Below are positions 41,503 to 58,056 of a DNA stretch of 64,000 nt, piece after piece; position 1 is the first letter of the stretch; every line of letters starts with the position of its first letter. The notes beneath the pieces were generated by a model. The model was not told the DNA's origin. It saw nothing but the letters and a program-made list of their open reading frames with translations, and did not search any database. A program made the translations under genes and the position numbers. Source of the DNA: Thermoguttaceae bacterium (GTDB lineage: Bacteria; Planctomycetota; Planctomycetia; Pirellulales; Thermoguttaceae); assembly GCA_034005525.1 (NCBI GenBank), contig JAVEUP010000021.1, positions 1,557 to 65,556 on the forward strand, read 5' to 3'.

Positions 41503-44500
41503 TCATACCCCCACCAAAACCCCCAACGTCAAGAATGCCAGGCGGGCCGAGACCTTGCCAGGATCGAGCCGGAACTGGCGGGCGACGGCGCGGCGGTAGG
41601 CGTCGAGCTGGGGGCGATAGTGCTCCACGCGGGCGGCCAGGGCGGCGGCGTCGCCGGGGGGAAGCTGGTCGGTCTTGAAGTCGAGCACGTCGGCGCCGAC
41701 CACCTGCGGGCCGTCGTATAATACGGTCAGCCGGTCGATCGAACCGCTCAGGATCGCCCCGTCTTCGAGCAAGGCGAACGGGCGTTCTCGCCATACGCGC
41801 CAGTGCGGCGAGCCCAGCCCCGGGCCGGCGCAAGCGGCGCAGGTGCCGTCGCCAGGCTGCTTGTAGAACGCACGGCTCAGCGCGGCAGTGATTGTGGGCC
41901 GGTCCACCGCGGCGTGGAACTCGCGCTTCAACGCCGCGACGGCCGCGGCGTCGAGCGTCGAACGCTGAGCCAGTTGGTCGAGCCGGGCGTCGTCGGGCAG
42001 CCCGTCGTCGAGCCATTCGATCTGCTCGAACCAGGCGTGCATGAGGCTGCCGCGCTGGAGCGCCGGGCCGGCTTCCACGGTCAGGCTCGTAGAAAGCTTC
42101 ACCCGATGCCCTCCCTCCAAGCCCGAGGGACTGACCCGCTCCAGGCCGCGCCGCGGCTGCGAAGCCGGGGCGGCCAACTCGATGGCCAGCGGTTCGGCCG
42201 CCGCGGCTGTTGCTGCCGCCCGCCCGCGCACGATGCCCGCGGCCAGCGCCCGGGCGTACCAGTCGGCATCGCCGTGCTCGAAGGCGGCCGTTTCCGGCTC
42301 CACGCGGGCACCGTTGACCAGCGCGGCGCGGAGCACGCCCGTGGCGGTGCCGGGTAGCTTCTTCTCCTTCTCCGACGACGGCGCCACAACGCACCATAGC
42401 GAGTGGATCGGCCGCGTCAGCGCGACGTACAGAATGCAGAGCGACTCCTCGACTTTCACGCGGTCGTCGGCGTCGAACGCGTCGGCCAGCCGCTTCGGCA
42501 GCAGGCAGCGGAAGCCCTTCGGCACATAGCGGCACACCTGGTCGATCGGCTCGGCCGGCCCCGCGCGGCCGACGACCAGCGCGGACGTTTGCGGGCCGAG
42601 TTGGAAGTCGAGTTCCGGCAGTACAACGATGTCGAACTGGAGCCCCTTGACCTGGTGATAGTTCATCACGCGCACCGGCGCGGAAGTGGGCGACTCGACC
42701 CGCCGCTGCTCGACCATGACCACGAACTGGTCGGTGCGCGTGGTCGCGGCCGGCTCGTAGCCGTAGGCCAGTTCGACAAGCTGCATCAGCCGGCTGAGGT
42801 CGCGGGCATCACAATGCCCGGCAAGCTGCTCCGCCCAACCGTAAAGGGTCGGACCATAACCGGCGTCCATCAGCCGGTGCCGAATGTCGCCGGCCAGCCG
42901 CAAGGCTGCCGCGCCGTCGGCGTGATCGGTGAAGCCAATCGCCGCACCCAAGGGCGAACGGGCCACATGGAAGCGGGCGACCGTATCGCCCGGATGATCC
43001 ACCAGCCGCAGCAACGACAGCATGAGCTGCACGGCGGGCGAGTCGGTCAGCGGGTTGCCCCCCTCCTCGCTTGCGTCGACTTCCGCCTGGCGCAAGCGGT
43101 AGATCAGCCGGGCCACGGAGGCGTTCTTCCTCACCAACACGCCAATGGAGCATCCGGGCGATTCTTCGTGCAGTTGCTTCACCAGCCTTGCTGCGTAGTC
43201 GAGCGTCACGTCATTCTGCACCTGGCCCTCGGCCGCGCGCGGGGCTCCGGCCACGCGGCAGTAACCGGGCAGACCTTTGCGGGCGGTCGAGTGCTCCGTG
43301 AACCGGCCGCCCCAGGCGGCAGCCGCTTCCGGGTGGTTCTGCACGGCGACATTGCTTGCGATTCCCCGGAATACCCGGTTCACCACGTCGATCACCACGG
43401 GCGACGAGCGATAGCTGCAAGTCAGTTCGCCGGCGGTGAGTTCGGGCAGCTCGTTGTTAAGCGTATCGAAGATCTCGGCCACGCCGCCTCGCCAGCCGTA
43501 AATGGCCTGCTTCACGTCGCCCACGCAGAAGAACGACCGCCGCGGGCCGCCCCGCACGCTTTCTCGTGCGAACGGGCGCAGCACGCGCCATTGCTGCGGC
43601 GAGGTGTCCTGGAACTCGTCCAGCAGCAGGTGCGACACCGGCGCGTCGAGCCGGTACACCACCTCGTCGAGCCGCCCGGCCAGGTCGGACTGGGCCAGCA
43701 TGCGCGTGACGTCGTCGAACCGGACCGCCTGGCGGGCGAGCTTCAGCCGCCGATACGCATCGTCGAAATGCTTTAGCAGCCGGCGCGTGCCCTCCGTTTG
43801 GTTCGCAATCCGCCCGAGCACCTCGGCCTTCGCGTGGTCCATTAGCGGCCGGTACCGGGCAATGAGTTCGTCGGGGATCGGCTTGTTGTAGTAGGTCAGC
43901 GTGGAATCGAGGATTTTGGCGGCCAGGCCGCCCGCGAGGAAACCGTCCCAGTCTTCCGTGCCTGCGCGGTCGAGGTCCTTGTCGCGCGCGCCCGCCATCC
44001 GCTTGTTGCTGCTGAGGTCGAGGGCCGCGGCCGCGTCGATGGCCGCCTGGAGTTCGGCCGGCGGCAGCGGCTTGTAGCGGGGCAGGGCCTGCCATGCAGT
44101 GTCCGGCGCATCGACGTAGGCCCCGTACAGGCCGGAAACCAATCCGGCAATCTCCTCGGCCACCGACCGGGCCGCGGCGCCCTTGTGCAGCAGGTGCATC
44201 AGCTCCAGGGCGTCGGCGGTCGACTCCTGCGCGACGATCCGGCGGACCGCCTCGGCCTGCATGGCGGCGTCGTCCATCTCGTCGACGATTTGCCAGCCGG
44301 GCGGCAGCCCGAGTTCCAGCCCGAAGCTTTGGGCGATTTGCACGAAGAAGCTGTCGAGCGTACCCACGCGCAGCCGGTGGAGGCGGCGGACCATGGCGGC
44401 CACCAGCCGCAGGCAGTTCTCGCGGTTGAGCTTGCCGCCTTCGACGTGCTTGTTGAGTTCGGCTAGCTTCTTCGCGTCGAGTGCGGCGGTCGCCAGCCGG

Positions 44501-44673
44501 GTGAGCACTCGGTTGAGGATTTCGCCCGCCGCCTTGCGCGTGAACGTGCTGGCCAGAATGGCGTCGAGCGGCTCGCCAGCCGCCGCCAGCCCAATGAACC
44601 GGTTGCTAAGCTGGAACGTCTTGCCCGTACCGGCCGACGCGCGAATGACCAGGTTGGAGAAGCGATGGCTCAT
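41503..44673 (-). CDS. addA: AddA/RecB-type UvrD-family helicase with a C-terminal PD-(D/E)xK nuclease
   Basis: Walker [12 protein letters not shown], UvrD-like helicase blocks, and C-terminal GSIDRL...[10 protein letters not shown]...QLDAY. Confidence 0.85.
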
Positions 44674-44761
44674 GCTGCCCCTTCGCTATTTCAAGCTCTT
44701 GCCCGGAATCCCCGGCGCCCGTCCCCGCTGCTCAGGGCGCGATCAGAAACAACTTGAGCAA

Positions 44762-44802
44762 ATTGTATTAGGCACACGCCGTGTGCCTACTACACTGCAA
44801 TT
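44762..44802. repeat. Palindrome GTATTAGGCACACG/CGTGTGCCTACTAC in the addA leader; a half-copy lies at 31305-31331
   Basis: The 14-nt arms have one mismatch (44765-44793). The related ATTGTAGTAGGCACACGCCGCTGTGCC lies 58 nt upstream of the methyltransferase ATG. Confidence 0.6.
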
Positions 44803-44828
44803 GACCAACTCATTGGCGTCCCCGCCGC

Positions 44829-45860
44829 TCAGCCGCACCAGGGCCGCTCGCGGTTGCCGGCCTTTTCCAGGGCGTGGATGGCAGTGCGCACGTCGGCTTC
44901 GACCTGGAAGTCGAACATGCCTGCAAGAACGAAGTCGGCTCCGGCGCGGAACGCGTCGGTGAAGGCCCTTCGTGGCGCAATCGCCCCGGCTGCCATGACC
45001 TTAAAGGCGACCCAAGGCTTCTCGACCTTCGCCATGAACTCAGCCGTTTCCTGCGGGTTGTTGCACCACATGTTGTCGTGGTTGGTGTTGCGATCCAACG
45101 ACCAGCCGCCCATCCAGTCGTATTCGCGGCGGTGGTCCTCGGGTGTGGCCGACCAGTAGGCATCGCCGTGGTAGGTCTTCACGTAGAAGTCGGCGCCCAC
45201 CTTATCGCGCTCACAAGCTATTGGCATGTTCAGCGAATGGCCGCCCACGCCTGCCGGCAGTCCTTCGGCCTGGATCAACTCGACCATCTGGGCAATGATG
45301 TCGGTGCTGCCGCCTTTCATCATGTGGCTGTCGGTCACTCCGCCGTGGGAATAGATGAACGTCGCGCCCAGGTCGACCTGCCGCTTGATTTCCTCGGCCA
45401 TCTTGGCCTTGTCGGCCATCAACGTGACGCACGGCATCGTCTGGATCTTCTGGCTGCGGCTCTCGTTGTATTTCAAGACTGTCGGCCAGCACCGCGGGTC
45501 GAGTTGAATCGTGTTGATCCCGCAGGCCAGGCAAAGATCGAGCGTTTCGAACACCTTGTCTTCGGTGTTGTAGGCCATGAATAACTTCGAGGCATACATC
45601 AGATCGCGGCTATGAGCCCAGCCCCCGATCAGGTTCCCGCCGATCAATAGCCGGCTGAGCGAGACGTCGCCGATCTTTCCACACGGCAGGCTGCCGGGCG
45701 CAATGCTGGTCTGTGGGTTCCCTTGCTCGTCCTTGGCCGAATCATCGTTGATCGCAGCCCGGAGCGTGTTCTCCTCAATGCTTGTGTAAGCCGCGGCCAC
45801 ACCGGCGGCTCCCGCGATACCGCGGGCGAGAAAGCAACGGCGGTCGGTCTTTATTGTCAT
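44829..45860 (-). CDS. Hypothetical Tat-signal protein (family not recognised)
   Basis: Start at the internal ATG at 45860 gives MTIKTDRRCFLARGIAGAAGVAAA. 343-aa ORF between addB and addA on the same strand. Confidence 0.7.
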   Translation of the reverse strand: MTIKTDRRCFLARGIAGAAGVAAAYTSIEENTLRAAINDDSAKDEQGNPQTSIAPGSLPCGKIGDVSLSRLLIGGNLIGGWAHSRDLMYASKLFMAYNTEDKVFETLDLCLACGINTIQLDPRCWPTVLKYNESRSQKIQTMPCVTLMADKAKMAEEIKRQVDLGATFIYSHGGVTDSHMMKGGSTDIIAQMVELIQAEGLPAGVGGHSLNMPIACERDKVGADFYVKTYHGDAYWSATPEDHRREYDWMGGWSLDRNTNHDNMWCNNPQETAEFMAKVEKPWVAFKVMAAGAIAPRRAFTDAFRAGADFVLAGMFDFQVEADVRTAIHALEKAGNRERPWCG

Positions 45861-46076
45861 GACAGGTAACCTCGAAACGGGGGTGGGATTGCGGGACTTG
45901 CTTTGCCAAACCTGTATTATTGTCAAATCGTGGCGAGTTCCGCTACCCTTCGTTTGGACAGGGCCGCTTCGGGTCGCAGAAGTACTGCTAAGTATCTATC
46001 TGGACAAGAGTTAGGGGCAGATCCCGGATTCGCCATCGCTTGAGGAGCAGAGAATGATTATTCCTGCTTGCTTGGC

Positions 46077-46167
46077 CTGCTGACAAGCTGGAAGCTTATC
46101 CCACGGGCCAATGGTTGGTCGGCAAGGGCGTTTTCACTGCTGACAAGCTGGAAGCTTATCCCACGGG
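46077..46167. repeat. Two exact 31-bp direct repeats spaced 60 bp start to start, abutting the addB stop codon
   Basis: CTGCTGACAAGCTGGAAGCTTATCCCACGGG occurs at 46077-46107 and 46137-46167. The addB stop is at 46169-46171. Confidence 0.8.
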
Positions 46168-46168
46168 G

Positions 46169-49108
46169 TCATGCGGCGTCGCCTTCCGCCTCGGCCAGTT
46201 CGGCGCCGTACTGCCCGTCTTGGCAGATGGCGGCGAGGTCCTCGGAAAAGGCGGGCGGTGGCGAGGTGGGCGGCCAGAACACGCCGGCACGCACTCCGCG
46301 AATCACGTCGGCCGCGGCGGCATCGGCCTCCGCCAGGTCGGCGTCGGTCCATTCGGCCGGAAGGATGCCCACGGCGTTGGTGTCTTTCGGCAGGGCGATG
46401 TACGCCAGCCGGACCGAATCGCTGATGCCCAGCCCCTTGACCAAGTGCCGGTACAGGGGCAGTTGCAGGTCGATCCACTCGCCCTGCTTTCGATGCGTCT
46501 TCTCCGGGGCGCGGGCGCTCTCGGAAGTCTTGTAGTCGAAGACGATGTACTCTTTGGCGGCCGGGTTGAAGTCGATCCGGTCGATTCGGCCGCGAAGCTG
46601 CATGGGCGTCCCGTCTACGATGAGTACGGCCGTGCCCGGCTCGGGCGATGCTTCAGCATGCTGGATGCGCCAACCCTCCGCAGCCCACCCGGCCTGCCAG
46701 CGGGCGAATGCCCGGAGTCGCCACCGCAACTGCTCGATTTGCACGCGCACCGCAGGCAGCGCCGCCGGCCCGAACCGCGCGTCGGCCAGCCGGTCCAGCG
46801 CCGCGCCCAGGTGGGCCTCGATCTCCTCGGCATCGGTCGAATGGACCGCGGGCGAGCGGGCGAACTCGTGCAGCACGTCGTGCGCCAGCGAGCCGAACCC
46901 GCCGCCGTCCAACTCCTGCGCCGTGTCGGCCAGCGATTCGAGCTTCAGCCGGTGGCGAAGGTAATAGCGGTAGGGGCAGGCAAGATAGTCGCGGAACTCG
47001 GTGACGCGCATCGACGTGACCGGCTCGGGCAGCGGGTCGGGCTTCGGAACGGGCAATGCCGACGCCGCTTGTCCCGCCCGAAGCGCGCCGTGCGCGGCCG
47101 GACCGATTGTCGCTTCCGATTCGGCGAAGAACCGGCCCGCCCTGCGGGCAGCCGTCTCGTCGTCGCAGGCGAACAGCAGCCGGCTGGGCGCGAGCGGATC
47201 GCCCACAGCGCTGCGCCGGCCCGTCACCAGGGCAAGCCGCTCGCGCGAGGCGGCCAGCACGCTTAGAACATACGCATCGCGGGCGTAGCGGCGGTCGTTG
47301 TCCATGATGCCCAACGCACGCCGAAGCTGGTTCGGCAGGAACAGGTCGGCGTTGATCGCGTCGGGCACGGCCCCCTCGTTGAATCCGGTAACGATCAGGG
47401 CCGGCGCGTCGTCCAGCGGCAAATCGAGCCAGCCGAGCATTTCCACCGCCCCGCGTTCGGGCGCGGCGCTGATACGATCGGCCTCCAACTGGCCCAGGAG
47501 CATGTGCAGGGCCTCGGGCGCGGCAACCTGACCGGCCACCGCATCGGCCAGCCGGCTGGGGATGCCGGCATTCTCCCGGGCCGCGTCGCGAATCAGTTCA
47601 CATGCCCGCAGAATACTGCGGTCCGGTTCGCGGCGGCGGTCGAGCGGCCGGCAGCCGAACACGGCGGCCAGCAGTTCGAGCACCGGCTTTCCCCAGTCGG
47701 CGAGCGTGTGCTTATCAGCCAGCGGGCCCAGCAACCGCTCGACGGCAGCGTGCAGTTGGGCGACGACGTGCTCGTAGGGTGGGTCAAGGTCGCTTGAGTT
47801 CTTGGTGGGTCGCTGCAAACTGCTTCCGTCCCCATTCTCGCGTTGTGGGTCTGAACTGCGTTGGCCAAGCGACCGACGACCCACCGCGGATGCCGCTTGC
47901 CGGCCCCAGCCCACAGGCGATCCCGACTTGTCCAGCCGGGCCGGCAGACGTTCGCCCTGGTAGGCGTCCAGCCGGCTCAGCCAATCGCCCCGAATGCCCT
48001 GCTGTACGACCCAGTCGGCCAGGGCCGGGTGGCGGACCAGGGCAGCAAGAGCAGCGAACGAACGCGAAGTAAGATACTCGGCCACGGCCGTGAGCAGCCG
48101 GCAGGGCGACGACTGCGCGACCGGCCGGCCCACGCCGTACCGGGCGGGAACGCCGCATGCGGTGAGCAGTTGCTGAAGCTGCGGAACCAACTCGTCGGCC
48201 ACCCGGTCGGGCACGCCAATGGTGATTTGCTCGGCCGGGTACCGTGCGCCGAGTCCGGCAAGCCACCGGCCCACCGCGGCGGCCTGCCCGGCCGGATCGT
48301 CGGCCTGGACAATCTGCTCGTCGCTGAAGTCGATGGGCGCTTCGAGCCAGGCATCGGGCTTCAGGCACCCGTGCTCGTCAAAGCGGTCGGCGAGCGACTC
48401 CGGGGCGAACACCAAGGCAGTCACATGGTCTGCCACCTGATCGAGCATGAGCCGCTGCTGACGGTTCAAGTCGGCCGTACCTACCAGGAGGATCGGCCGG
48501 TCGGTCATACATTCGTTGTCGCGAATGGCCACTCGGCGGGCCGTCTGCTGGTCCCAGAGCCCGAGGGAATCGAGGATGCCCAGGTAGCGCTTCTGCACCT
48601 GCACCAGCGCCTGCCATCGGGGCGTTTCCCGAAAGCCGTCCACGGCCGCACCCGCTTCGACCACGTCACTGAAATTGACGTTCTCGCGGGCCAATTCGCG
48701 GTGCAGGCCGGCCAGCATCGCACCCAGGGCAAGCCATGCCGGGAAGTCGTCGTCGGCCGGCAGCGACGGAATCAGGCGCTCGACTACGGCCGGCTCGCTG
48801 CCGCGCAAGGCATCGATCCAGGCAAGCTGTTGCGTCAAATCGTCGGCAAAGGGACGCTTGGCCTGATACAGCTTTTCGGGCAGGTTGCCGACGGTGACAA
48901 TTTCCGGCGGGCAAAGCGGCACCCGGTCGGCTTCGGCCCGGGCTACCAGCAGTTCGAGTACACGGCGTCCCGCGCGACTGGTCGGAACGGCCAGCACGAT
49001 GCCCGCCAGGTCGAGCCCGTCGGGCGTGCCGAAATGCTCCACCAGATAATCCACGGCTACCTGAAGGCCCGGACGCTGGAAATCGCGGAATTGGCTGTGG
49101 ATGGGCAT
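46169..49108 (-). CDS. addB: AddB-like PD-(D/E)xK nuclease family protein
   Basis: Start at the internal ATG at 49108. Degenerate N-terminal helicase-like region. C-terminal YLACPYRYY and GRIDRIDF...EYIVFDYKTSE nuclease motifs. Only two Cys in the nuclease region (LACPYRYY and AAICQ), so no four-Cys Fe-S pattern. Confidence 0.7.
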   Translation of the reverse strand: MPIHSQFRDFQRPGLQVAVDYLVEHFGTPDGLDLAGIVLAVPTSRAGRRVLELLVARAEADRVPLCPPEIVTVGNLPEKLYQAKRPFADDLTQQLAWIDALRGSEPAVVERLIPSLPADDDFPAWLALGAMLAGLHRELARENVNFSDVVEAGAAVDGFRETPRWQALVQVQKRYLGILDSLGLWDQQTARRVAIRDNECMTDRPILLVGTADLNRQQRLMLDQVADHVTALVFAPESLADRFDEHGCLKPDAWLEAPIDFSDEQIVQADDPAGQAAAVGRWLAGLGARYPAEQITIGVPDRVADELVPQLQQLLTACGVPARYGVGRPVAQSSPCRLLTAVAEYLTSRSFAALAALVRHPALADWVVQQGIRGDWLSRLDAYQGERLPARLDKSGSPVGWGRQAASAVGRRSLGQRSSDPQRENGDGSSLQRPTKNSSDLDPPYEHVVAQLHAAVERLLGPLADKHTLADWGKPVLELLAAVFGCRPLDRRREPDRSILRACELIRDAARENAGIPSRLADAVAGQVAAPEALHMLLGQLEADRISAAPERGAVEMLGWLDLPLDDAPALIVTGFNEGAVPDAINADLFLPNQLRRALGIMDNDRRYARDAYVLSVLAASRERLALVTGRRSAVGDPLAPSRLLFACDDETAARRAGRFFAESEATIGPAAHGALRAGQAASALPVPKPDPLPEPVTSMRVTEFRDYLACPYRYYLRHRLKLESLADTAQELDGGGFGSLAHDVLHEFARSPAVHSTDAEEIEAHLGAALDRLADARFGPAALPAVRVQIEQLRWRLRAFARWQAGWAAEGWRIQHAEASPEPGTAVLIVDGTPMQLRGRIDRIDFNPAAKEYIVFDYKTSESARAPEKTHRKQGEWIDLQLPLYRHLVKGLGISDSVRLAYIALPKDTNAVGILPAEWTDADLAEADAAAADVIRGVRAGVFWPPTSPPPAFSEDLAAICQDGQYGAELAEAEGDAA

Positions 49109-49294
49109 GGACGCTTCGTGCGTGGAAGAACCCGACTGGGCTGAACCTACGCATTGTAGGGGATCGGAGAGGCTGCAACAAGCCAGCCGCTCTTGGCTCC
49201 ACGCTTTTGGGTCCCGACTCGACAAATGCGTTGCCGGTGATTAAATTAGAGGTTTCCGTAACTTGGGGGTCCAACGAGAAAGGGAGCAACTGCA

Positions 49295-50653: not shown

Positions 50654-51465
50654 GCTGTGCGGGGCACGCTTCGGATAACCAGCAGCGCCACGAGAGCGCC
50701 GGCGGGAACGTCGACGTAGTAGTGGCCGCCCACGGTGACGGTCGACGCGATCATCAGCACGTTCAGTCCGAACGCCCACCAGCGCAGTCTTGTCGGCCAT
50801 AGTGCGGCAGTCAGAAAGATCGCCCAAGCCGTATGGAAGCTTGGAAAGGTGATGATCCCTTGCGCGCCTTGCCATGTGATGACCGCCGCGCCCGACCGCA
50901 AGGCATGGAACCGTTCGGCAATGACGGGTGTGATGTTCCCCTGGACTCCCACGGCGGGGAAGAAATAGAAGAAGCATACGGTTACCAGGGCGCCCAGCAT
51001 GAATCGCTGCAGAAACGTCCAAAGACTGCTCTTCTCAGCCAGGATGAATAGCACCAAGATCGTCTGTGGAATGACTGAAGAATACGCTACCTTGAGCATA
51101 AAGGCTACGACCGGATATTGCGCGACGAAGGCAGCCGTTGCCGGGGCTGAAAGGCCCAAGGTGGAATCTGCGGCCAGCAACATGGCGTCGGCAAGTGGAT
51201 AGGACGTCGCCGCAATCGCTTCCATGAGCATTGTGAACGCGGCGGAGAAGGCGATCAGCGTGACAAGCCCCCGCAGGAGGTTGGGCTGCCACAGAAGACT
51301 CGCGCAGAAGACCAAGCCACTGAACACCATCGCCTGCCAATAGCCCGCTGCCTGGAGGTCCTGCACGAAGATCAGCAGGCCGGCGGCCAGCGCAGCCAGC
51401 ATGACGGGAATGTCATTGATAATCCAGCGACGCGAATACTCGGCGTTGGCTTGCACTGATAACAC
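50596..51465 (-). CDS. PAP2-superfamily membrane protein
   Basis: Polytopic. FPSFHTAWA and VGGHYYVDV phosphatase-motif remnants. Its 3-prime end overlaps the converging trpB2 by 58 bp. Confidence 0.7.
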
Positions 51466-51615
51466 CTGTCTCCGTTCCGGATATTCGAGGGCGACAACTC
51501 CACTTTCGCGGCCGAACGGTTGTCATTGGAGAACTCGCCCTCAGTACCGCGGGCACAACGGGCAATCTCCCGGGAATGCTCGCCTGCCCGCCTCCCAACA
51601 ACCATAGAATCCCAT

Positions 51616-51643
51616 TTGACATCGGTCGAATCTGAACTAGGTT
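51616..51643 (+). promoter_or_regulatory. Candidate promoter for the flp leader (TTGACA-N16-TAGGTT)
   Basis: Perfect -35 TTGACA at 51616-51621 and a weak -10 at 51638-51643. It would give a leader of about 440 nt containing the riboswitch-like element. Confidence 0.25.
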
Positions 51644-51800
51644 TCAATGTAGAGGCCAATGGCACGCGAGTGCCGGCTGGACATGGGACGGCCGAAAGGC
51701 TGTCTCGAGGAGGGGGGAGTTCTCCGCCGAAAAACACATTCGACACAGCTCCTTATGCTCGGCGGACCACCTGAATCACCCAGGCCTGCAAGCCTCAGAA

Positions 51801-51890
51801 CCCTCGAAAGGGCAAACCGGTTGAAAGGCCGGGGCGCAAAGCCAAGGGCCGGCGGCGCTAGCCGGCGGAAGCCTGGCTGCCGAAAGGGTG
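51801..51890 (+). promoter_or_regulatory. c-di-GMP-I (GEMM-I)-like riboswitch aptamer in the flp pilin leader
   Basis: Ordered blocks GGGCAAACC, a hairpin CCGGUU-GAAA-GGCCGG, GGCGCAAAGCC, a stem GCCAAGG...CCUGGC and UGCCGAAAG. These match the GEMM-I core as I recall it. Not verified with a covariance model. Confidence 0.6.
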
Positions 51891-52088
51891 AAACCAGTGA
51901 TTTCGGCCAGCGACGGGGAAGAGGCACGTTTTTCCAAAATAGGGTTCCGGAAGGTGGCCGCAGGCCCGCGGCGGGCAATCCGCCGCGACACTCGAAGGAG
52001 CCCAACCCTGTTTTCGGTTCCGGTTAGTCCTCGGCGCCCCGCGTTTACGCCCGGCGCTGAGGGATGAAGCTGGAATGGAGGAATACCC

Positions 52089-52295
52089 ATGAAGTCGCTT
52101 GCTATGAAGGTGCATCGTTTCCTCGTTTCAGAGGATGGGCCCACCGCAGTGGAGTACGCGGTCATGTTGGCGCTGATTGTGATCGTCTGCTTGACGGCCA
52201 TTACCGCCATCGGATCGCAGGCCAACGCGACGTTTGAGACCATTGGTACCGAACTCGAGAATGCCAACGGCCTAGCTGGTGGCGTAGGTGGTTAG
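52089..52295 (+). CDS. flp: Flp-family type IVb pilin
   Basis: 68 aa with a GGAGGA RBS. Flp motif DGPTAVEYAVMLALIVIV. Confidence 0.9.
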   Translation: MKSLAMKVHRFLVSEDGPTAVEYAVMLALIVIVCLTAITAIGSQANATFETIGTELENANGLAGGVGG

Positions 52296-52375
52296 TGCCG
52301 CTTGGTGGTGCTGACCGCCTGACCCACGGCCAGGTCCATTGTCGGCCAGGCCAATCGTCCGATTTTGACCGGAAA

Positions 52376-52415
52376 CCCCCTCGGCGCCGATTTGGCGCCG
52401 GGGGGGCGTTTTTTT
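52376..52415 (+). terminator. Rho-independent terminator downstream of flp
   Basis: 13-bp GC-rich stem (52376-52388 pairs with 52394-52406, one G-U pair), loop GATTT, then CG plus seven T (52409-52415). Confidence 0.85.
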
Positions 52416-52581
52416 GGCTCGCCGATTCCATGGGCCAAGCAGAATTCCATTGCGGCAAGCATGATCGGCACGTGCCGCCCGGCTCGCAGCCCATACGGTT
52501 TTCCGGCGGCATGGGAGCGTTTCTTAAGCTAGCATTGCATAGAGAATTCGGTTTCCCCCAGAACTTCCCGGAGTAATGCTC

Positions 52582-53148
52582 ATGTCGCTTACCGCCGCTG
52601 TCCCCACTGGTGTCATCGAAAACTGGCATATTTGGCTCGTCAGCGCCGTGCTTGTCGTGGCCGCCGTTATCGACGGTTGGAAGTTGAAGGTGCCCAATTG
52701 GCTCACCTTCCCGTTCGTCGTAGCCGGCTGGACCTACAGCGCGGTGTGGTTTGGATGGGCCGGGCTGGGCTGGAGCCTGATGGGAACCGGAGTTGGTTTG
52801 CTCCTGCTGTTGCCAGCCTACGCCATTGGCGGCATGGGGGCAGGCGACGTGAAACTGCTGGCTGGGGTGGGCGCCTGGGTTTGGGGCACGATCACGTTCT
52901 ACGCGTTTTGTGCCTCGGCTGTTGTCGGCGGTGTTCTGGCCGTGGGGATGGTACTGTACGCCCGCAAGCTTCGCCATCACAAGGCCCAATTCCTCGCAAT
53001 CCTCACGGAAATTCTGGTCCTCCGCAATCCGGAGGAGCTTTCCGAAATCGCCGCCCAACGCAAGAGCACGATGATGCTGTTGCCGTACGGTATACCGATC
53101 GCCATTGGCACAATCACGTACTTTGCATTGGCGGGAATGTTGGTCTGA
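52582..53148 (+). CDS. cpaA: Prepilin peptidase CpaA/TadV (A24 family)
   Basis: Polytopic. GMGAGDVKLLAGVGAW aspartyl-protease block. ATG 52582 is preferred (GGAG 8 nt upstream). ATG 52576 is an alternative. Confidence 0.85.
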   Translation: MSLTAAVPTGVIENWHIWLVSAVLVVAAVIDGWKLKVPNWLTFPFVVAGWTYSAVWFGWAGLGWSLMGTGVGLLLLLPAYAIGGMGAGDVKLLAGVGAWVWGTITFYAFCASAVVGGVLAVGMVLYARKLRHHKAQFLAILTEILVLRNPEELSEIAAQRKSTMMLLPYGIPIAIGTITYFALAGMLV

Positions 53149-53176
53149 GGGTCAACGGCAGTAAGGAGCCAACGTC

Positions 53177-53695
53177 ATGCACGCCCTAGTCTTCCGGAGA
53201 GACCGCTCACCGATTGGCCCCCTGGGCCGGCCCCCAGAGACAAGAATTGCTCCGCGTCGGCATTTCAAACTGGAGAAGGTGTGCCGATTTTGCCGAAAGA
53301 ATCGACGAGGCGCTGCTGCAGTCGAGTTTGCCATTGTCGCGCCGCTCTTCTTCCTCTTGATATTCGGGATCATCGAGTTTGGACGCATGATTATGGTCCA
53401 GCAGATTATCACGAATGCCTCACGAGAGGGGGCCAGGGTGGCTGTCCTCGATGGCGCGACGACTGGAGAGGTGGATTCCAAGGTTGCCAACTACCTGCAG
53501 GGAGCCAATATCCATCGAGGCGCAAGTATTACGGTCAGCCCTGACCCGCCCGATTCCGCGGGTTGGGGTGAGCCTGTAACCGTTACTGTCACTATACCTT
53601 TCAGTCAAGTTACTTGGCTTCCGACGCCAATGTTTGTAGGCGGAGACATGCAGCTCTCCTCCAGCACGACTATGCGCCGTGAGACTGTGCAATAA
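53177..53695 (+). CDS. tadE: TadE/TadG-family pseudopilin-like protein
   Basis: AAGGAG lies 8 nt upstream. RRGAAAVEFAIVAPLFFLLIFGIIEFGR TadE N-terminal motif. Confidence 0.8.
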   Translation: MHALVFRRDRSPIGPLGRPPETRIAPRRHFKLEKVCRFCRKNRRGAAAVEFAIVAPLFFLLIFGIIEFGRMIMVQQIITNASREGARVAVLDGATTGEVDSKVANYLQGANIHRGASITVSPDPPDSAGWGEPVTVTVTIPFSQVTWLPTPMFVGGDMQLSSSTTMRRETVQ

Positions 53696-53769
53696 CGATT
53701 GCACAAGATGCGGTAGCTGTGCCGGAGGGGTTCGGGTTCGCAGCGGGGGCCAAACGCGCAAGGGGGGAG

Positions 53770-54942
53770 ATGATGCGAGGCAAATCGCTTGCACTGCTAG
53801 TGCTTGCGCTCGGTTGCGGGCTGGTTGCGTCGATTGGCGTGACGCAGGTCATCGCCAAGCGCCACACCGAGACTCCCGCCCCATCAGTGGAGATGGAGAG
53901 TATCTTCGTTGCGATGGCCGACATTGCTTTGGGCGATCCGCTGACTGCTCAGGTTCTCAAGTTGGAACCGTGGCCGAAGAGCAAGATTCCCGAGGGGGCA
54001 TTCACTAAGGTCGAGGATATCGAGGGCCGCCGAGCGCGCGCCCGGCTTTTTGCAGGTGAGCCGATCATCGAACGCAAACTGCTCAAGCGGGGCGAATCCA
54101 GCGGCGGGATCAGCCCGCTGATTCCCAAAGGGATGCGAGTCGTCTCGGTCAAGGTCGACCAGGTTTCCGGCGGCGGCGGACTCATTCTGCCAGGCGACCG
54201 GGTCGACGTGGTTGTCTACCTGACCCAAGCCCTGACGCGGGGGATTCCTGAAACCTCCACCCGGACTGTCCTGCAAGACATCAAGGTATTCGCGGTCAAC
54301 GACCAGTTCAACCTTGACAGCGAAGGCAGCGACAAACGCTCGATTACCAATGCGCGCACCGTTTCGCTGCTGGTGACGCCGGCTCAGGCCCAAAAGGTCA
54401 TGCTGGCCGGCGAGATGGGCCAAATTCGGCTGGTGCTCCGCAGCCCGGAGGACGACGAACAGGCCAGCCTGGCAACCGCCACTGCGCAAGACATCCTGGG
54501 AGGTCCAGGTGCTGGGAACCGAGATATGGAGACCCTGGTGGAGTCTGAACTCCCGGCGGAAGACGACCAGATGCAGGGCTTCCTCGACTTCCTGAACGAG
54601 AACATGCACGCGAGGGCCGCGGCGCAGTCCTCTGCTCGAGGCCCGCAAGCCGTGCCTCCGGCACCCGAGAACACAACCTGGAACATGCGTATCGTACGTG
54701 CCGGCAAGATCGAGGACATCCAACTGTACGGCGACACGAAAGCGGGCGAGCACGGCCTCATTTGGCACCACGGCGCGCCGGCCCCGACTCCGCCCTCGGA
54801 CGGGCAATACCAGCCGTTTCCTGGCGCGCCGGCGTCAACGGTCCCGGCTCCGGCCGGTCCGACCATGACCTCGCCGCTTGAGGAACCGGAAGACGAGATG
54901 CCCCGGGAAGCGGAAGAAGACACACCCCCAACCCCGCAGTAG
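53770..54942 (+). CDS. cpaB: Flp pilus assembly protein CpaB, with a Pro-rich C-terminal tail
   Basis: Start at the internal ATG at 53770 (MMRGKSLALLVLALGCGLVASIG). SAF-like and RcpC-like regions follow. Confidence 0.8.
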   Translation: MMRGKSLALLVLALGCGLVASIGVTQVIAKRHTETPAPSVEMESIFVAMADIALGDPLTAQVLKLEPWPKSKIPEGAFTKVEDIEGRRARARLFAGEPIIERKLLKRGESSGGISPLIPKGMRVVSVKVDQVSGGGGLILPGDRVDVVVYLTQALTRGIPETSTRTVLQDIKVFAVNDQFNLDSEGSDKRSITNARTVSLLVTPAQAQKVMLAGEMGQIRLVLRSPEDDEQASLATATAQDILGGPGAGNRDMETLVESELPAEDDQMQGFLDFLNENMHARAAAQSSARGPQAVPPAPENTTWNMRIVRAGKIEDIQLYGDTKAGEHGLIWHHGAPAPTPPSDGQYQPFPGAPASTVPAPAGPTMTSPLEEPEDEMPREAEEDTPPTPQ

Positions 54943-54960
54943 CAAGGTGAGTGAGCCGGC

Positions 54961-56835
54961 ATGGATCGTCGGCCCCTGACGGAGGAACCCTTCCGGGGCC
55001 CGAACCCGGATAACGCTTCAAGGAAATCAAGGATGAGGAAGCCCAGTATTCTGCAATGGTGCCGCCGCGTCGCGCGGTCGCGATCCTCCGCCCCGGCAAC
55101 GAGCCCGATTCATGCGTTGCCCGCTCTCGCACTCCTGTTGAGCGTTCTGCTTGCGTCCGTGGTGTGTGGCCAGCACAGCCCGCCGCCGGAGGTGTTTGAC
55201 CCATCGCGGCCTCCCTCGCTGATCTACAAGGTCACAAGCGTTCAGCAGCGGCTGGAAATGACCGTCAACGCCAGCCGGCGTCTGGAAATGGACCAGAAGA
55301 TTCCGGAAGCCCAGGTCAACAACCCCGACATCGTGGACCTGACGCCCCTGGCACCCAACGTGGTCCAGATTTCAGCGAAGAATCCCGGGGTGACCCAGGT
55401 CAATTTGTGGGGTGAGGACAAGCAGATTTACACAATCGACGTCATCGTATACCGCGACGTCCGTGAGTTGGGACTCTTGCTCGAATCCCAGTTCCCCAAT
55501 GCGAAATTGAAAGTCGTCCCGGTCGGCAACGGCGTGATGATTTCCGGCTACGTTGACCAGCCGGAACAGGTCAGCCTCATCACGCGGATTGCCGAGGAAT
55601 ACTATCCAAAAGTCATACCCGCCATGACCGTAAGCGGCGTGCATCAGATTCTTCTGCACGTACGCGTCATGGAAGTGTCGCGAACGAAGCTCCGCTCGCT
55701 TGGGTTCGACTTCGCGCAGTTCAGCGGCGACAACTACGTGGTTTCAAGCGTCAGCGGGCTACTCAGCGCCTTTGGCGGGGGGGTCGCGACCAGTGGGCAG
55801 GAAACATTTTCGTTCGGAGTCGTAGACGGCTCCAGCGCGTTCTTCGGCGTCCTCGAAGCAATGCGTCAAGATCAGCTTATGAAGATTCTCGCGGAGCCGA
55901 CTTTGGTCACTGTCAGCGGCCGCCCCGCGTTCTTTCAAGTCGGCGGCGAGTTTCCCATTCTCGTGCCGCAAAGCCTGGGAACCGTTTCGATCGAGTACAA
56001 GAAATTCGGAACGCAGGTCGATTTTGTTCCCATCGTTCTGGGCAACGGCCGCATCCGGCTAGAGGTGCGACCCCGAGTGAGCGAGATCGACAACACCCGA
56101 AGCGTGACGCTCGACTCGACCACTGTTCCCGGCCTGCGTACCCGCGAGGTCGACACGGGAGTGGAAATGAACGCCGGGCAAACGCTTGCCATAGCCGGCT
56201 TGGTACAAACGCGGGTTGAGTCGGAGAACAAGGGTCTTCCGTGGGCCAGCGAGGTGCCTTATCTCGGCGCCCTGTTCCGCCGGGTGCAGCACCACAACAA
56301 CGAGATTGAACTGCTCATTCTGGTCACTCCCGAACTGGTCGAGGCCATGGACGCCCACGAAGTGCCGCTCTGCGGCCCGGGCTCCCGGACGACCGACCCG
56401 AATGATTGGGACCTGTTCATGCGAGGTCACCTGGAGGTACCTAACTGCTGTCCTCCCTGCGGTACAGACTGCGTCTCGTGTGCTTCCGGCGGCCAGCCGG
56501 GTCTGATCGGCGGTTGGGGTGACGGCGCGACACCCGAAGAAACGGTCTTTCCCGGCGAGGGCGAGATCGTTGCCCCCCCAAACGGCCAGCCACCGGCCGT
56601 GCCGCCGGCCTCCGATCCGACACTGGACGGTTCGACCAGCAGGGGCAACTCGCCCGCCGGGCAGCAGGGCCTGAGACGCCCGATGTTCCCAGCCCAGGTT
56701 AGCCACACCGCCACTCGCCCGCATAGTCCGTCCATGCGGCAGAATCCGCAGCCGACCCCGAACCCGGCGCAGGCCGAGGGCAGGTTGCCTGCGCCGGTTT
56801 TCATCGGCCCGGTCGGTTACGATGTTCTAAAGTAG
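54961..56835 (+). CDS. cpaC: Tad secretin CpaC/RcpA
   Basis: Pilus-formation N-domain (VVQISAKNPGVTQVNLWGEDKQIYTIDVIV) and secretin domain (LAEPTLVTVSGRPAFFQVGGEFP...). Alternative start at 55033. Confidence 0.9.
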   Translation: MDRRPLTEEPFRGPNPDNASRKSRMRKPSILQWCRRVARSRSSAPATSPIHALPALALLLSVLLASVVCGQHSPPPEVFDPSRPPSLIYKVTSVQQRLEMTVNASRRLEMDQKIPEAQVNNPDIVDLTPLAPNVVQISAKNPGVTQVNLWGEDKQIYTIDVIVYRDVRELGLLLESQFPNAKLKVVPVGNGVMISGYVDQPEQVSLITRIAEEYYPKVIPAMTVSGVHQILLHVRVMEVSRTKLRSLGFDFAQFSGDNYVVSSVSGLLSAFGGGVATSGQETFSFGVVDGSSAFFGVLEAMRQDQLMKILAEPTLVTVSGRPAFFQVGGEFPILVPQSLGTVSIEYKKFGTQVDFVPIVLGNGRIRLEVRPRVSEIDNTRSVTLDSTTVPGLRTREVDTGVEMNAGQTLAIAGLVQTRVESENKGLPWASEVPYLGALFRRVQHHNNEIELLILVTPELVEAMDAHEVPLCGPGSRTTDPNDWDLFMRGHLEVPNCCPPCGTDCVSCASGGQPGLIGGWGDGATPEETVFPGEGEIVAPPNGQPPAVPPASDPTLDGSTSRGNSPAGQQGLRRPMFPAQVSHTATRPHSPSMRQNPQPTPNPAQAEGRLPAPVFIGPVGYDVLK

Positions 56836-56838
56836 TAT

Positions 56839-58056
56839 ATGAGCAATGTCTTACGCTTGGCACTGGTCGATCCTGACGACTCCCAGCGCGAATCGATGAA
56901 GTCGATGCTGCTGGGCATGGACATGATCTGGCTGGAGGCCGAATGTTCCCGCTACGAGTTCTTTGCCGACGTGGTTGCGCAAACCAACCCCGACATCGGG
57001 TTGGTTTGCATCGACGACGACCCGGAGAAGGGACTCGACCTGGTCCGGCAACTCGGGGAGAGTTCGCCCAACTGTGCCGTGCTGGTGGTGAGTTCTTCAA
57101 GTGACGGGAATCTGATCCTCCAGGCGCTCCGGGCGGGGGCCAAGGAGTTCCTGACGCAACCGGTCCGCATTGAGGACCTGCTCGGCGCCTTGGGCCGAAT
57201 CGGCGAGCGCCGCACAGGCCCCGGCGAGAGCCGGCCTCGCGGCAGCCAGGTCATCGCCGTTGCCGGCGCCACCGGCGGCGTGGGCACCACGAGCGTGGCA
57301 GTCAACCTTGGCTGCGCGCTGGCCGCCGATCAGAAGAACTCCGTGGCACTGGTCGACCTGGACCTCTGCCTTGGCGACGCCGACGTGTTTCTCGACACCA
57401 TACCCGACTACACCTTGGTAGACGTCGCCCAGAACGTGACCCGGCTCGACTTCACGTTGCTCAAACGCTCGCTGACGAAGCATTCCACGGGACTCTACCT
57501 GTTGCCGCGGCCGGTGCAAATTGAGGACACGCGGCTGATCGGGGCCGAAGATCTTCAGCGGGTGATCGGGCTTCTGAAGGCCACGTTCACCCATCTTGTA
57601 CTCGACTTGTCGAAGAGCTTCAGCAACATCGACATGATGGCCCTGGAGATGGCCAACCACGTTCTGCTCGTCACGCAGTTGGACCTGCCGTGCCTCCGCA
57701 ACGTGGTGCGCCTGATGATGTCCTTCGGCGAGATGGACAACATGGCCAAGAAGGTCAAGATCGTGGTCAACCGCGCGGGATTGGAGCAGGGACAGATCAC
57801 TCTGAAGAAGGCCGAAGAGACCATTGGCAAGGAGATCTTCTGGCAGCTTCCCAACGATTACCGGACCATGGTCGAGGTGCGGAACAACGGCGTACCGCTC
57901 GTGGAACAGGCGCCCAAGGCCGCCATTACGCAGTCGATCGTTGCCCTGGCTGACGCCCTTTCCTCCGACGAAAGATCCCAACCGGCGAAAACGCCCGGTA
58001 AGAAGTCCGTGCTCGGACGCTTGTTCAATTTCGGCAGCGCCAAACCGGCGAAGTAG
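56839..58056 (+). CDS. cpaE: CpaE-like protein (receiver-like N-domain plus MinD/ParA-type ATPase)
   Basis: Deviant Walker A AVAGATGGVGTTSVAVNLG. N-terminal receiver-like fold. Confidence 0.85.
   Translation: MSNVLRLALVDPDDSQRESMKSMLLGMDMIWLEAECSRYEFFADVVAQTNPDIGLVCIDDDPEKGLDLVRQLGESSPNCAVLVVSSSSDGNLILQALRAGAKEFLTQPVRIEDLLGALGRIGERRTGPGESRPRGSQVIAVAGATGGVGTTSVAVNLGCALAADQKNSVALVDLDLCLGDADVFLDTIPDYTLVDVAQNVTRLDFTLLKRSLTKHSTGLYLLPRPVQIEDTRLIGAEDLQRVIGLLKATFTHLVLDLSKSFSNIDMMALEMANHVLLVTQLDLPCLRNVVRLMMSFGEMDNMAKKVKIVVNRAGLEQGQITLKKAEETIGKEIFWQLPNDYRTMVEVRNNGVPLVEQAPKAAITQSIVALADALSSDERSQPAKTPGKKSVLGRLFNFGSAKPAK

What the first reader, a model, noticed from the sequence alone, without database searches (positions are those of the whole stretch)
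51801..51890. GEMM-I (c-di-GMP-I)-like riboswitch in the flp pilin leader, with G at the position of the ligand-intercalating adenine
The plus strand reads GAAAGGGCAAACC GGUU GAAA GGCC GGGGCGCAAAGCC AAGG-[GCCGGC GGCGCUA GCCGGC GGAAG]-CCUGGCUGCCGAAAGG. The blocks GGCAAACC, a hairpin capped by a GAAA tetraloop, G-CGCAAAGCC, a second stem, and UGCCGA occur in the same order and spacing as in the c-di-GMP-I aptamer as I recall it. For comparison, V. cholerae Vc2 reads ..CAGGGCAAACC AUUC GAAA GAGU GGGACGCAAAGCC UCCGG...GGUUACCGA. The element lies about 200 nt upstream of the Flp pilin ATG on the same strand. That context is sensible, because c-di-GMP commonly controls pili. The motif reads GGGGCGC where Vc2 has GGGACGC. 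The adenine that stacks between the two guanines of the ligand (A47 in Vc2) is therefore a G here. This could mean altered affinity or specificity, or a decayed aptamer.
Basis: partly seen in the sequence, partly recalled or inferred. Interest (0 to 1): 0.72.

Follow-up and report, generated by a model that had tools for sequence, protein, structure and literature searches.

The report
Ordinary c-di-GMP riboswitch before flp
This is a real but ordinary c-di-GMP-sensing riboswitch in the leader of a Flp pilin gene; the "unusual G" is not at the ligand-stacking adenine (that adenine is intact) but four bases upstream, at a position where about one in five riboswitches of this class has G.

Summary
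Rfam scores it 61.7 bits (E 4e-12), all 28 consensus pairs are standard, and there is strong covariation across 122 relatives. It lies 199 nt upstream of a Flp pilin gene that heads a tad/cpa cluster. This arrangement is conserved in Pirellulales- and Gemmatales-like genomes.

The claim that made the finding interesting is wrong. The G in GGGGCGC (51834) corresponds to Vc2 position 43. The intercalating A47 is the first A of the J2/3 "AAA", and in the window that base is A (51838). G20 (51811) and C92 (51880) are also canonical.

G at position 43 is a common polymorphism. It occurs in 18-21% of an unselected metagenome sample and in at least 114 genomic aptamers across many phyla. No other column co-varies with it. 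Orthologous flp leaders carry either A or G there.

Rfam's best hit is the "GGC" variant model (RF03167), but the window lacks that family's defining G47. The label reflects a short P3, not the binding site.

The most likely function is c-di-GMP control of flp expression. The direction in this window is unresolved: compact orthologs place the ribosome-binding site in P1, which implies an OFF switch. Interest is low.

The parts
51616..51643 (+). Promoter-like element: TTGACA (51616-51621), 16-nt spacer, TAGGTT (51638-51643)
   Evidence: Conserved block upstream of the aptamer in window, L107, L084, L006 and L061. Not flagged by the strict consensus scan. Function as a promoter is inferred.
51800..51889 (+). 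c-di-GMP-I (GEMM-I) aptamer, from the P1 5' strand to the P1 3' strand
   Evidence: Rfam hit at 51802-51885, 61.7 bits. Own model R1, 85.6 bits. 28 of 28 consensus pairs are standard. Covariation across 122 relatives.
51800..51806 (+). P1 5' strand (ACCCUCG); pairs with 51881-51889
   Evidence: Compensatory differences among orthologs, for example ACCCU/AGGGU in the window versus AUCCU/AGGAU in L006.
51811..51811 (+). G20-equivalent (contacts one guanine of the ligand in Vc2)
   Evidence: G in 121/122 and 111/114 aligned aptamers. Role taken from PMC5888326.
51817..51832 (+). P2 hairpin (6 bp) capped by a GAAA tetraloop at 51823-51826
   Evidence: All six pairs show changes on both sides across relatives.
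51834..51834 (+).
   Evidence: G in 22/123 and 24/114 unselected aptamers.
51835..51835 (+). C44-equivalent (interhelical tertiary pair with the G83-equivalent at 51871)
   Evidence: Role taken from PMC11705072. C in 122/122.
51838..51838 (+). A47-equivalent, the true ligand-intercalating adenine; it is A here
   Evidence: A in 122/122 and 114/114 aligned aptamers.
51840..51878 (+). P3: lower helix 51840-51847 with 51872-51878; upper GCCGGC/GCCGGC stem with a 7-nt loop; 3' bulge containing the G83-equivalent at 51871
   Evidence: It lacks the CUAAG...UAUG tetraloop-receptor motif of the RF01051 consensus.
51880..51880 (+). C92-equivalent (Watson-Crick partner of the second ligand guanine in Vc2)
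   Evidence: C in 121/122. Role taken from PMC5888326.
51901..51917 (+). Segment complementary to the aptamer's 3' half (51872-51885); together they can form a predicted 14-bp anti-aptamer hairpin
   Evidence: Shorter equivalents occur in L107 and L084 only. Predicted, with no covariation support.
51929..51933 (+). T5 run 44 nt after the aptamer core; no canonical terminator stem abuts it
52077..52081 (+). flp Shine-Dalgarno sequence, GGAGG
   Evidence: GGAGGAA is conserved before the AUG in L107, L084, L006 and L061.
52089..52295 (+). Flp pilin gene (68 aa, ...EDGPTAVEYAVMLALIV...)
   Evidence: Pfam PF04964 Flp_Fap. Near-identical N-termini downstream of the aptamer in 10 other loci.
52376..52416 (+). 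Intrinsic-terminator-like hairpin plus T-run directly after flp
52576..58056 (+). Downstream tad/cpa genes: A24 prepilin peptidase, TadE-like, RcpC/CpaB, secretin CpaC, TadZ/CpaE-like
   Evidence: Pfam matches.

Best explanation
Window 51800-51889 is a canonical c-di-GMP-I (GEMM-I) riboswitch aptamer. It lies in the middle of a flp pilin 5' UTR of roughly 440 nt in a Pirellulales-like planctomycete.

It has the three-helix fold, the G20/A47/C92 ligand-contact triad and the C44/G83 tertiary pair. It most likely binds c-di-GMP, which would stabilise P1 (51800-51806 with 51881-51889).

Without ligand, the aptamer's 3' half (51872-51885) can instead pair with 51901-51917. This changes the fold of the downstream leader and so changes flp expression. 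Through read-through of the terminator after flp, the tad genes could also be affected.

Shown here: aptamer identity, the intact binding-site residues, and conservation of the aptamer-flp arrangement.

Inferred: that the ligand is c-di-GMP (about 0.85), and that the element regulates flp.

Unresolved: the direction of regulation. Two compact orthologs have the flp ribosome-binding site inside the P1 3' strand. That implies c-di-GMP turns translation OFF, and I favour OFF for this window only weakly (about 0.5, against 0.4 for ON).

The G at 51834 is a neutral-looking polymorphism at position 43. It is not a binding-site change.
For: Identity: Rfam hit at E 3.9e-12, full-length; own model 85.6 bits; 28/28 standard pairs.

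Covariation across 122 aptamers: 94.4% of cells paired versus 30-50% when partners are slid; 356 cells changed on both sides versus 91 in shuffles, 0/500 shuffles as high.

Binding site: G20, A47 and C92 equivalents are G, A and C in the window and in at least 121/122 relatives. Their roles come from PMC4744006, PMC5888326, PMC3764141 and PMC11705072.

Position 43: G in 22/123 pattern matches and 24/114 aligned aptamers from a metagenome sample not selected on that position. No column co-varies with it beyond the permutation null.

Context: Flp pilin and tad genes downstream. The same aptamer-flp arrangement is found in L107, L084, L006, L061, L033, L017, L072, L139, L160 and L213, with position 43 as G in eight and A in two.

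Mechanism: the anti-aptamer hairpin is predicted. In L160 and L213 the P1 3' strand (CGAAAGGAG / CGAAAGGAA) is the SD, 6-7 nt before the AUG.
Against: No binding or reporter data exist. The canonical 11-nt tetraloop receptor is absent from P3, so the tertiary docking differs from Vc2.

The window's expression platform is not defined. No canonical terminator follows the aptamer. The anti-aptamer hairpin is seen only in the three closest relatives and has no compensatory changes. The consensus fold of the 200-nt spacer is unconvincing.

Orthologs point in opposite directions. The compact forms imply OFF. In Gemmatales locus L072, the P1 3' strand forms the base of a predicted terminator stem followed by U6, which implies ON.
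Confidence: 0.85

Rival explanations
1. It is a true c-di-GMP-I-GGC variant riboswitch (Rfam RF03167). That would be a rare subclass with G in place of the intercalating A47 and possibly a different ligand.
For: RF03167 is the best-scoring Rfam family and the hit passes its gathering score, 61.7 versus 59.
Against: Within the conserved core, the RF03167 consensus differs from RF01051 by G at model position 37 (GACGC-G-AAgCc versus GACGC-A-AAgCc). The window has A there (51838). 15 of 20 riboswitch hits were assigned to RF03167, including a fully canonical GGGACGCAAAGCC at L019:4049-4154. All 122 aligned aptamers have A47. The label therefore follows the short, receptor-less P3 and not the binding site. 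No aptamer-like G47 sequence appeared among 123 unselected matches.
Confidence: 0.03
2. G at position 43 defines a functional subclass with altered affinity, kinetics or ligand specificity (for example 3'3'-cGAMP).
For: RF01051 and RF03167 both show an upper-case A at this position. It neighbours G42 and C44, which make tertiary contacts.
Against: G43 is present in about 20% of the class, across many phyla and all tetraloop types. G20 is retained, whereas the known c-AMP-GMP variants are described as rare specificity variants of this class (PMC7266159) and, from my own knowledge, carry A20. No other column co-varies with position 43. Orthologous flp leaders carry A43 (L139, L213) or G43. Position 43 is not among the published highly conserved nucleotides.
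Confidence: 0.07
3. It is a decayed, non-functional aptamer remnant.
For: The score is only just above the RF03167 gathering score. A long 199-nt spacer separates it from flp, and no clear expression platform was found.
Against: Every invariant core nucleotide and all 28 pairs are intact. The aptamer-flp arrangement is conserved across divergent Planctomycetota, with compensatory changes in the stems. My own model gives 85.6 bits.
Confidence: 0.05

Closest known systems
c-di-GMP-I riboswitch (GEMM-I; Rfam RF01051), prototype V. cholerae Vc2
   Same: Same P1/P1b-P2/P3 architecture and GNRA tetraloop on P2. Same conserved core GGCAAACC...GG-N-CGCAAAGCC...UGCCGA. Same G20/A47/C92 triad and C44/G83 tertiary pair. 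Lies in a 5' UTR on the same strand as a surface or motility gene.
   Different: G instead of A at position 43, a polymorphism found in about 20% of the class. Short P3 without the CUAAG...UAUG tetraloop receptor. About 200 nt separate the aptamer from the start codon, and the expression platform is undefined.
c-di-GMP-I-GGC variant (Rfam RF03167)
   Same: Best-scoring Rfam model. Shares the short P3 with an AG bulge and the explicit P1.
   Different: Lacks the family's defining G at the A47-equivalent; the window has A at 51838. It therefore has a canonical binding site.
c-AMP-GMP riboswitch (GEMM-Ib)
   Same: Same fold and clan.
   Different: From my own knowledge, those variants carry A at position 20. 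The window has G at 51811.
c-di-GMP-II riboswitch upstream of the C. difficile type IV pilin gene pilA1
   Same: A c-di-GMP-sensing leader RNA controlling a pilin gene (from my own knowledge; papers touching on this were listed but I did not read them).
   Different: A different aptamer class (GEMM-II), a different pilus type (T4aP rather than Flp/Tad), and a different phylum.

Membership tests
c-di-GMP-I / GEMM-I (RF01051, clan CL00126) | Covariance-model match at or above the curated threshold | tested here: met
   The clan hit is full-length, 61.7 bits, E 3.9e-12. One further clan family also passed its own gathering score but was hidden by the tool's clan competition. That family is presumably RF01051 (gathering score 35), but its score could not be displayed.
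c-di-GMP-I / GEMM-I (RF01051, clan CL00126) | P1, P1b/P2 and P3 helices supported by covariation | tested here: met
   28/28 standard pairs in the window. 15 of 21 model pairs show changes on both sides; 94.4% of cells paired versus 30-50% in slid controls.
c-di-GMP-I / GEMM-I (RF01051, clan CL00126) | Ligand-contact nucleotides G20, A47 and C92 | tested here: met
   G 51811, A 51838, C 51880. Numbering.
c-di-GMP-I / GEMM-I (RF01051, clan CL00126) | Interhelical C44-G83 tertiary pair | tested here: met
   C 51835 and bulged G 51871 are present. This is sequence-level evidence only.
c-di-GMP-I / GEMM-I (RF01051, clan CL00126) | GNRA tetraloop on P2 docking into a receptor in P3 | tested here: inconclusive
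   The GAAA tetraloop is present (51823-51826). The CUAAG...UAUG receptor of the RF01051 consensus is absent. Orthologs vary the tetraloop (GAAA, GCAA, GAGA, GUGA), which suggests a generic helix dock.
c-di-GMP-I / GEMM-I (RF01051, clan CL00126) | Selective binding of c-di-GMP | not testable with these tools
   Needs in-line probing, ITC or equilibrium dialysis.
c-di-GMP-I-GGC variant (RF03167) | Score at or above the Rfam gathering threshold | tested here: met
   61.7 versus 59 bits.
c-di-GMP-I-GGC variant (RF03167) | G at the A47-equivalent. The name is read as G20-G47-C92. I inferred this from the RF03167 versus RF01051 consensus; the primary paper was not readable here. | tested here: not met
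   The window has A at 51838. The model consensus has G at position 37.
c-AMP-GMP riboswitch (GEMM-Ib) | A in place of G20 (from my own knowledge) | tested here: not met
   G at 51811.

The most novel reading that the evidence does not exclude
The planctomycete flp riboswitch family may use a long-range expression platform not yet described. The roughly 200-nt structured spacer is present in the window, L107 and L084, whereas compact orthologs place the SD inside P1. Alternatively or additionally, G43 may tune c-di-GMP affinity or kinetics. Either way, Flp/Tad pilin synthesis would be set directly by c-di-GMP at the RNA level during the swimmer-to-sessile life cycle of Planctomycetota. I found no paper describing this.
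Probability: 0.12. Interest if true: 0.4.

Novelty: already known. Interest (0 to 1): 0.13.

Why it matters
It matters little beyond annotation. The element is a standard c-di-GMP-I riboswitch that any Rfam-based pipeline would flag.

Three points are modestly useful:
- The attention-grabbing "A47G" reading is a numbering error and should not be propagated.
- The Rfam label "c-di-GMP-I-GGC" is assigned here, and to many other sequences, even though they carry the canonical A47. That label should not be read as evidence of a variant binding site.
- Direct riboswitch control of Flp pilin genes appears conserved in Planctomycetota. It comes in both compact (SD-in-P1) and long-leader forms, which gives a simple entry point for studying c-di-GMP control of Tad pili in that phylum.

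Tried and rejected
- I tried three identifiers for Weinberg et al. 2017 PNAS, the paper that defined the GGC variant (DOI, PMC5358364, PMID). It is not held. The meaning of "GGC" therefore rests on the comparison of Rfam consensus sequences and on my own recollection.
- I could not display the RF01051 score for the window, because the tool keeps only the best clan member.
- I looked for a distinct G43 subclass using mutual information between position 43 and all other columns. Nothing exceeded the permutation null.
- I looked for an intrinsic terminator after the aptamer. The consensus scan finds none on the + strand in the leader. My U-run/hairpin search gives only a non-canonical structure in the window.
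- Free versus aptamer-constrained MFE folds of eight leaders gave no consistent switch.
- RNAalifold on the three closest leaders gave a covariation penalty and many broken pairs.
- I considered the 59-codon ORF that starts at GTG 51888, immediately after P1, as a regulatory leader peptide. I rejected it: on visual comparison the corresponding ORF in L084 shows no obvious similarity, L107 has only a 6-codon ORF there, and the SD-to-start spacing is about 1 nt.
- A scan at E <= 1 found no second Rfam motif in 51400-52450.
- The 9 "G47" matches in the genome scan and the 1 in the metagenome scan have irregular spacers and coding-like flanks. They are not aptamers.

Full report
**1. What is in the sequence**

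A gathering-threshold Rfam scan of the whole 64-kb window gives a single hit. It lies at 51802-51885 (+) and matches RF03167, "c-di-GMP-I-GGC riboswitch aptamer". The score is 61.7 bits against a gathering score of 59, with E 3.9e-12, and the model is matched end to end. One lower-scoring match from the same clan was suppressed. At E <= 1, nothing else in 51400-52450 matches any Rfam family.

I threaded the window onto the consensus architecture. P1 is 51800-51806 with 51881-51889. P1b is 51812-13 with 51836-37. P2 is 51817-22 with 51827-32, capped by GAAA. P3 is 51840-53 with 51861-78. All 28 pairs are standard base pairs. The element is real and far beyond chance.

**2. Context**

Downstream on the same strand lie:
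- a 68-aa Flp pilin (52089-52295, Pfam Flp_Fap);
- a terminator-like hairpin with a T-run (52376-52416);
- an A24 prepilin peptidase, a TadE-like protein, RcpC/CpaB, a secretin and a TadZ/CpaE-like protein.

A promoter-like block is conserved upstream of the aptamer in the five long-leader loci I compared. It consists of TTGACA (51616-21), a 16-nt spacer and TAGGTT (51638-43). This would place the aptamer in the middle of a 5' UTR of about 440 nt.

**3. The key claim is a numbering error**

Three papers show otherwise.
- PMC3764141 places A47, A48 and A49 in J2-3. It lists G42, C44 and G45 as conserved P2 nucleotides, but not position 43.
- PMC11705072 gives the G21-C46 pair, the A25-G42 contact and the C44-G83 tertiary pair.
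- PMC4744006 gives the ligand contacts as G20/A47/C92 in Vc2 and G12/A39/C104 in Vc1, with the interhelical C at Vc1 position 36. The intercalating A is therefore 27 nt 3' of the G20-type G and 3 nt 3' of the interhelical C.

In ...AGGGCAAACC...GGGACGCAAAGCC... only the first A of the AAA satisfies both offsets. The A in GGGACGC is position 43. The RF01051 consensus printed has the same spacing and supports the count independently.

The mapping onto the window is:

| Vc2 position | Window coordinate | Base |
|---|---|---|
| G20 | 51811 | G |
| C44 | 51835 | C |
| A47 | 51838 | A |
| G83 | 51871 | G |
| C92 | 51880 | C |

The binding-site triad is canonical.

**4. What the Rfam "GGC" label means here**

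The RF01051 consensus reads gggGACGCAAAgCc. The RF03167 consensus reads GGGACGCGAAgCc. Within the conserved core, the only difference is G at the A47-equivalent. This fits the name G20-G47-C92. The window has A at that position, so it lacks the defining feature of the family it is assigned to.

In a scan of 18 related loci, 15 of 20 riboswitch hits were assigned to RF03167. One of these is a fully canonical GGGACGCAAAGCC at L019:4049-4154. All 122 aptamers in my alignment have A at position 47. The sequences assigned to RF01051 carry the long P3 with the CUAAG...UAUG receptor. The RF03167 model has a short P3. The label therefore follows P3 architecture and not the binding site.

**5. How unusual is G at position 43?**

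It is not unusual.
It yielded 114 clean aptamers with G43 and A47. They come from Actinomycetota, Planctomycetota, Omnitrophota, Chloroflexota, Bacillota, Desulfobacterota and others.
It gave 101 A43/A47, 22 G43/A47, no A43/G47, and one G43/G47 match that is not aptamer-like.
- After alignment with a covariance model, 114 metagenome aptamers show position 43 as A in 90 and G in 24 (21%). A47 is A in 114/114. G20 is G in 111 and A in 3. C92 is C in 110.
- No alignment column shares mutual information with position 43 above a permutation null: maximum 0.119 against a 95th percentile of 0.117.
- Tetraloop types are mixed in both the A43 and G43 groups.

**6. Covariation**

On 122 aptamers aligned to my model R1, 94.4% of pair cells are standard pairs. 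When the 3' partners are slid by 1-3 columns, the figure falls to 30-50%. 356 cells carry a change on both sides, against 91 +/- 8 in shuffles, and 0 of 500 shuffles reach that value. 15 of 21 pairs show changes on both sides. The alignment was fitted to the model, so it leans towards the structure, but the margin is large.

**7. Orthologous flp leaders**

Seven genomic loci carry the same aptamer 240-310 nt upstream of near-identical Flp pilins (M-K...EDGPTAVEYAVMLALIV). They are L107 and L084 (Pirellulales), L006 (Bythopirellula), L033 (Pirellulaceae), L017 (Rhodopirellula), L072 (Gemmatales) and L061. Three metagenome loci do too: L139 and L213 with A43, and L160 with G43. Orthologs upstream of the same gene therefore carry either base at position 43. 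P1 shows compensatory differences, for example ACCCU/AGGGU in the window against AUCCU/AGGAU in L006.

**8. Mechanism**

The aptamer should bind c-di-GMP and stabilise P1. This is inferred from the intact triad and the fold. What happens downstream is less clear.
- In the compact orthologs L160 and L213, the P1 3' strand (CGAAAGGAG and CGAAAGGAA) is itself the Shine-Dalgarno sequence, 6-7 nt before the flp AUG. Ligand-stabilised P1 would occlude it, giving a translational OFF switch.
- In Gemmatales locus L072, the P1 3' strand is predicted to pair with UCCCCUCG immediately before a U6 run (dG -26.9). That is the logic of an ON switch.
- In the window, the aptamer's 3' half (51872-85) can form a 14-bp hairpin with 51901-17. 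A T5 run follows at 51929-33, but no stem abuts it. Shorter versions of this anti-aptamer hairpin exist only in L107 and L084.
- Free versus constrained folds and a three-sequence consensus fold of the spacer gave nothing consistent.

I therefore commit to c-di-GMP-dependent control of flp through competition between P1 and the anti-aptamer hairpin. I lean only weakly towards OFF. From my own knowledge, OFF would fit the Caulobacter-like picture of Tad pili as a low-c-di-GMP, swimmer-cell feature.

**9. Comparison with known systems, and novelty**

The element works like, and is a member of, the c-di-GMP-I class. It is not a GGC variant, because the defining G47 was tested and is not met. It is not a c-AMP-GMP variant either, because it has G20. 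Literature searches found no paper on c-di-GMP riboswitches before Flp pilin genes in Planctomycetota. That would be a new instance of a known kind of regulation, not a new kind.

**Verdict:** the finding is an ordinary, already-known type of element. Its interesting-looking feature is a mis-numbered, common polymorphism.

Noticed in passing
L019:4049-4154, plus 14 other hits; window 51802-51885: Rfam clan competition assigns short-P3 c-di-GMP-I aptamers to RF03167 ('GGC') although they carry the canonical A at the A47-equivalent. 15 of 20 riboswitch hits were labelled this way, and all 122 aligned aptamers have A47. The label is not a reliable indicator of a variant binding site.
   Followed up: yes
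window 51616-51648: A promoter-like block, TTGACA-16 nt-TAGGTTTCAA, is conserved upstream of the aptamer in the window, L107, L084, L006 and L061. It is followed by small hairpins such as GGCACGCGAGTGCC at about 51661-51674. This implies a structured flp 5' UTR of about 440 nt.
   Followed up: partly
L160:233-333 and L213:249-361: These are compact flp riboswitches in which the P1 3' strand is the Shine-Dalgarno sequence, 6-7 nt before the AUG. That gives clear translational OFF logic, in contrast with the 200-nt spacer in the window.
   Followed up: partly
L072:4690-4840: In a Gemmatales ortholog the P1 3' strand is predicted to form the base of a long stem ending directly before a U6 run. 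That is terminator (ON) logic, opposite to the compact forms. A second flp gene follows in tandem.
   Followed up: partly
window 52376-52416: A strong intrinsic-terminator-like hairpin (14 pairs, 12 of them G-C) with a T-run lies directly after flp and before the prepilin peptidase gene. From my own knowledge, such attenuation after a pilin gene is typical.
   Followed up: no
window 52576-58056: The tad cluster here contains a prepilin peptidase, a TadE-like protein, CpaB, a CpaC secretin and a TadZ/CpaE-like protein, and it ends at 58056. The next genes are a GYD-domain protein, a HAD hydrolase and an LptD_N-containing protein. No CpaF/TadA ATPase and no TadB/TadC were among the ORFs I checked with Pfam.
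   Followed up: partly
L061 and L043: L061 is labelled as a Granulosicoccus (Gammaproteobacteria) MAG, but its flp leader and Flp pilin are near-twins of Bythopirellula L006, so the contig is probably mis-binned. L043 is labelled as a Nitrososphaerota archaeon MAG but carries a c-di-GMP-I aptamer, so it is probably contamination.
   Followed up: no
L015, L036, L042, L081, L214: Tandem c-di-GMP-I aptamers occur here: two to four copies spaced about 100 nt apart. Tandem arrangements are a known phenomenon for this class.
   Followed up: no
alignment A3 (metagenome loci L121-L219): 3 of 114 aptamers have A at the G20-equivalent. From my own knowledge, that is the signature of c-AMP-GMP (GEMM-Ib) riboswitches.
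   Followed up: no
window 41503-49225 (- strand): Two adjacent large genes encode a UvrD-type helicase with a PD-(D/E)XK nuclease domain and a second PD-(D/E)XK nuclease protein. The pair looks like AddAB/AdnAB-type recombination enzymes and is unrelated to the finding.
   Followed up: no
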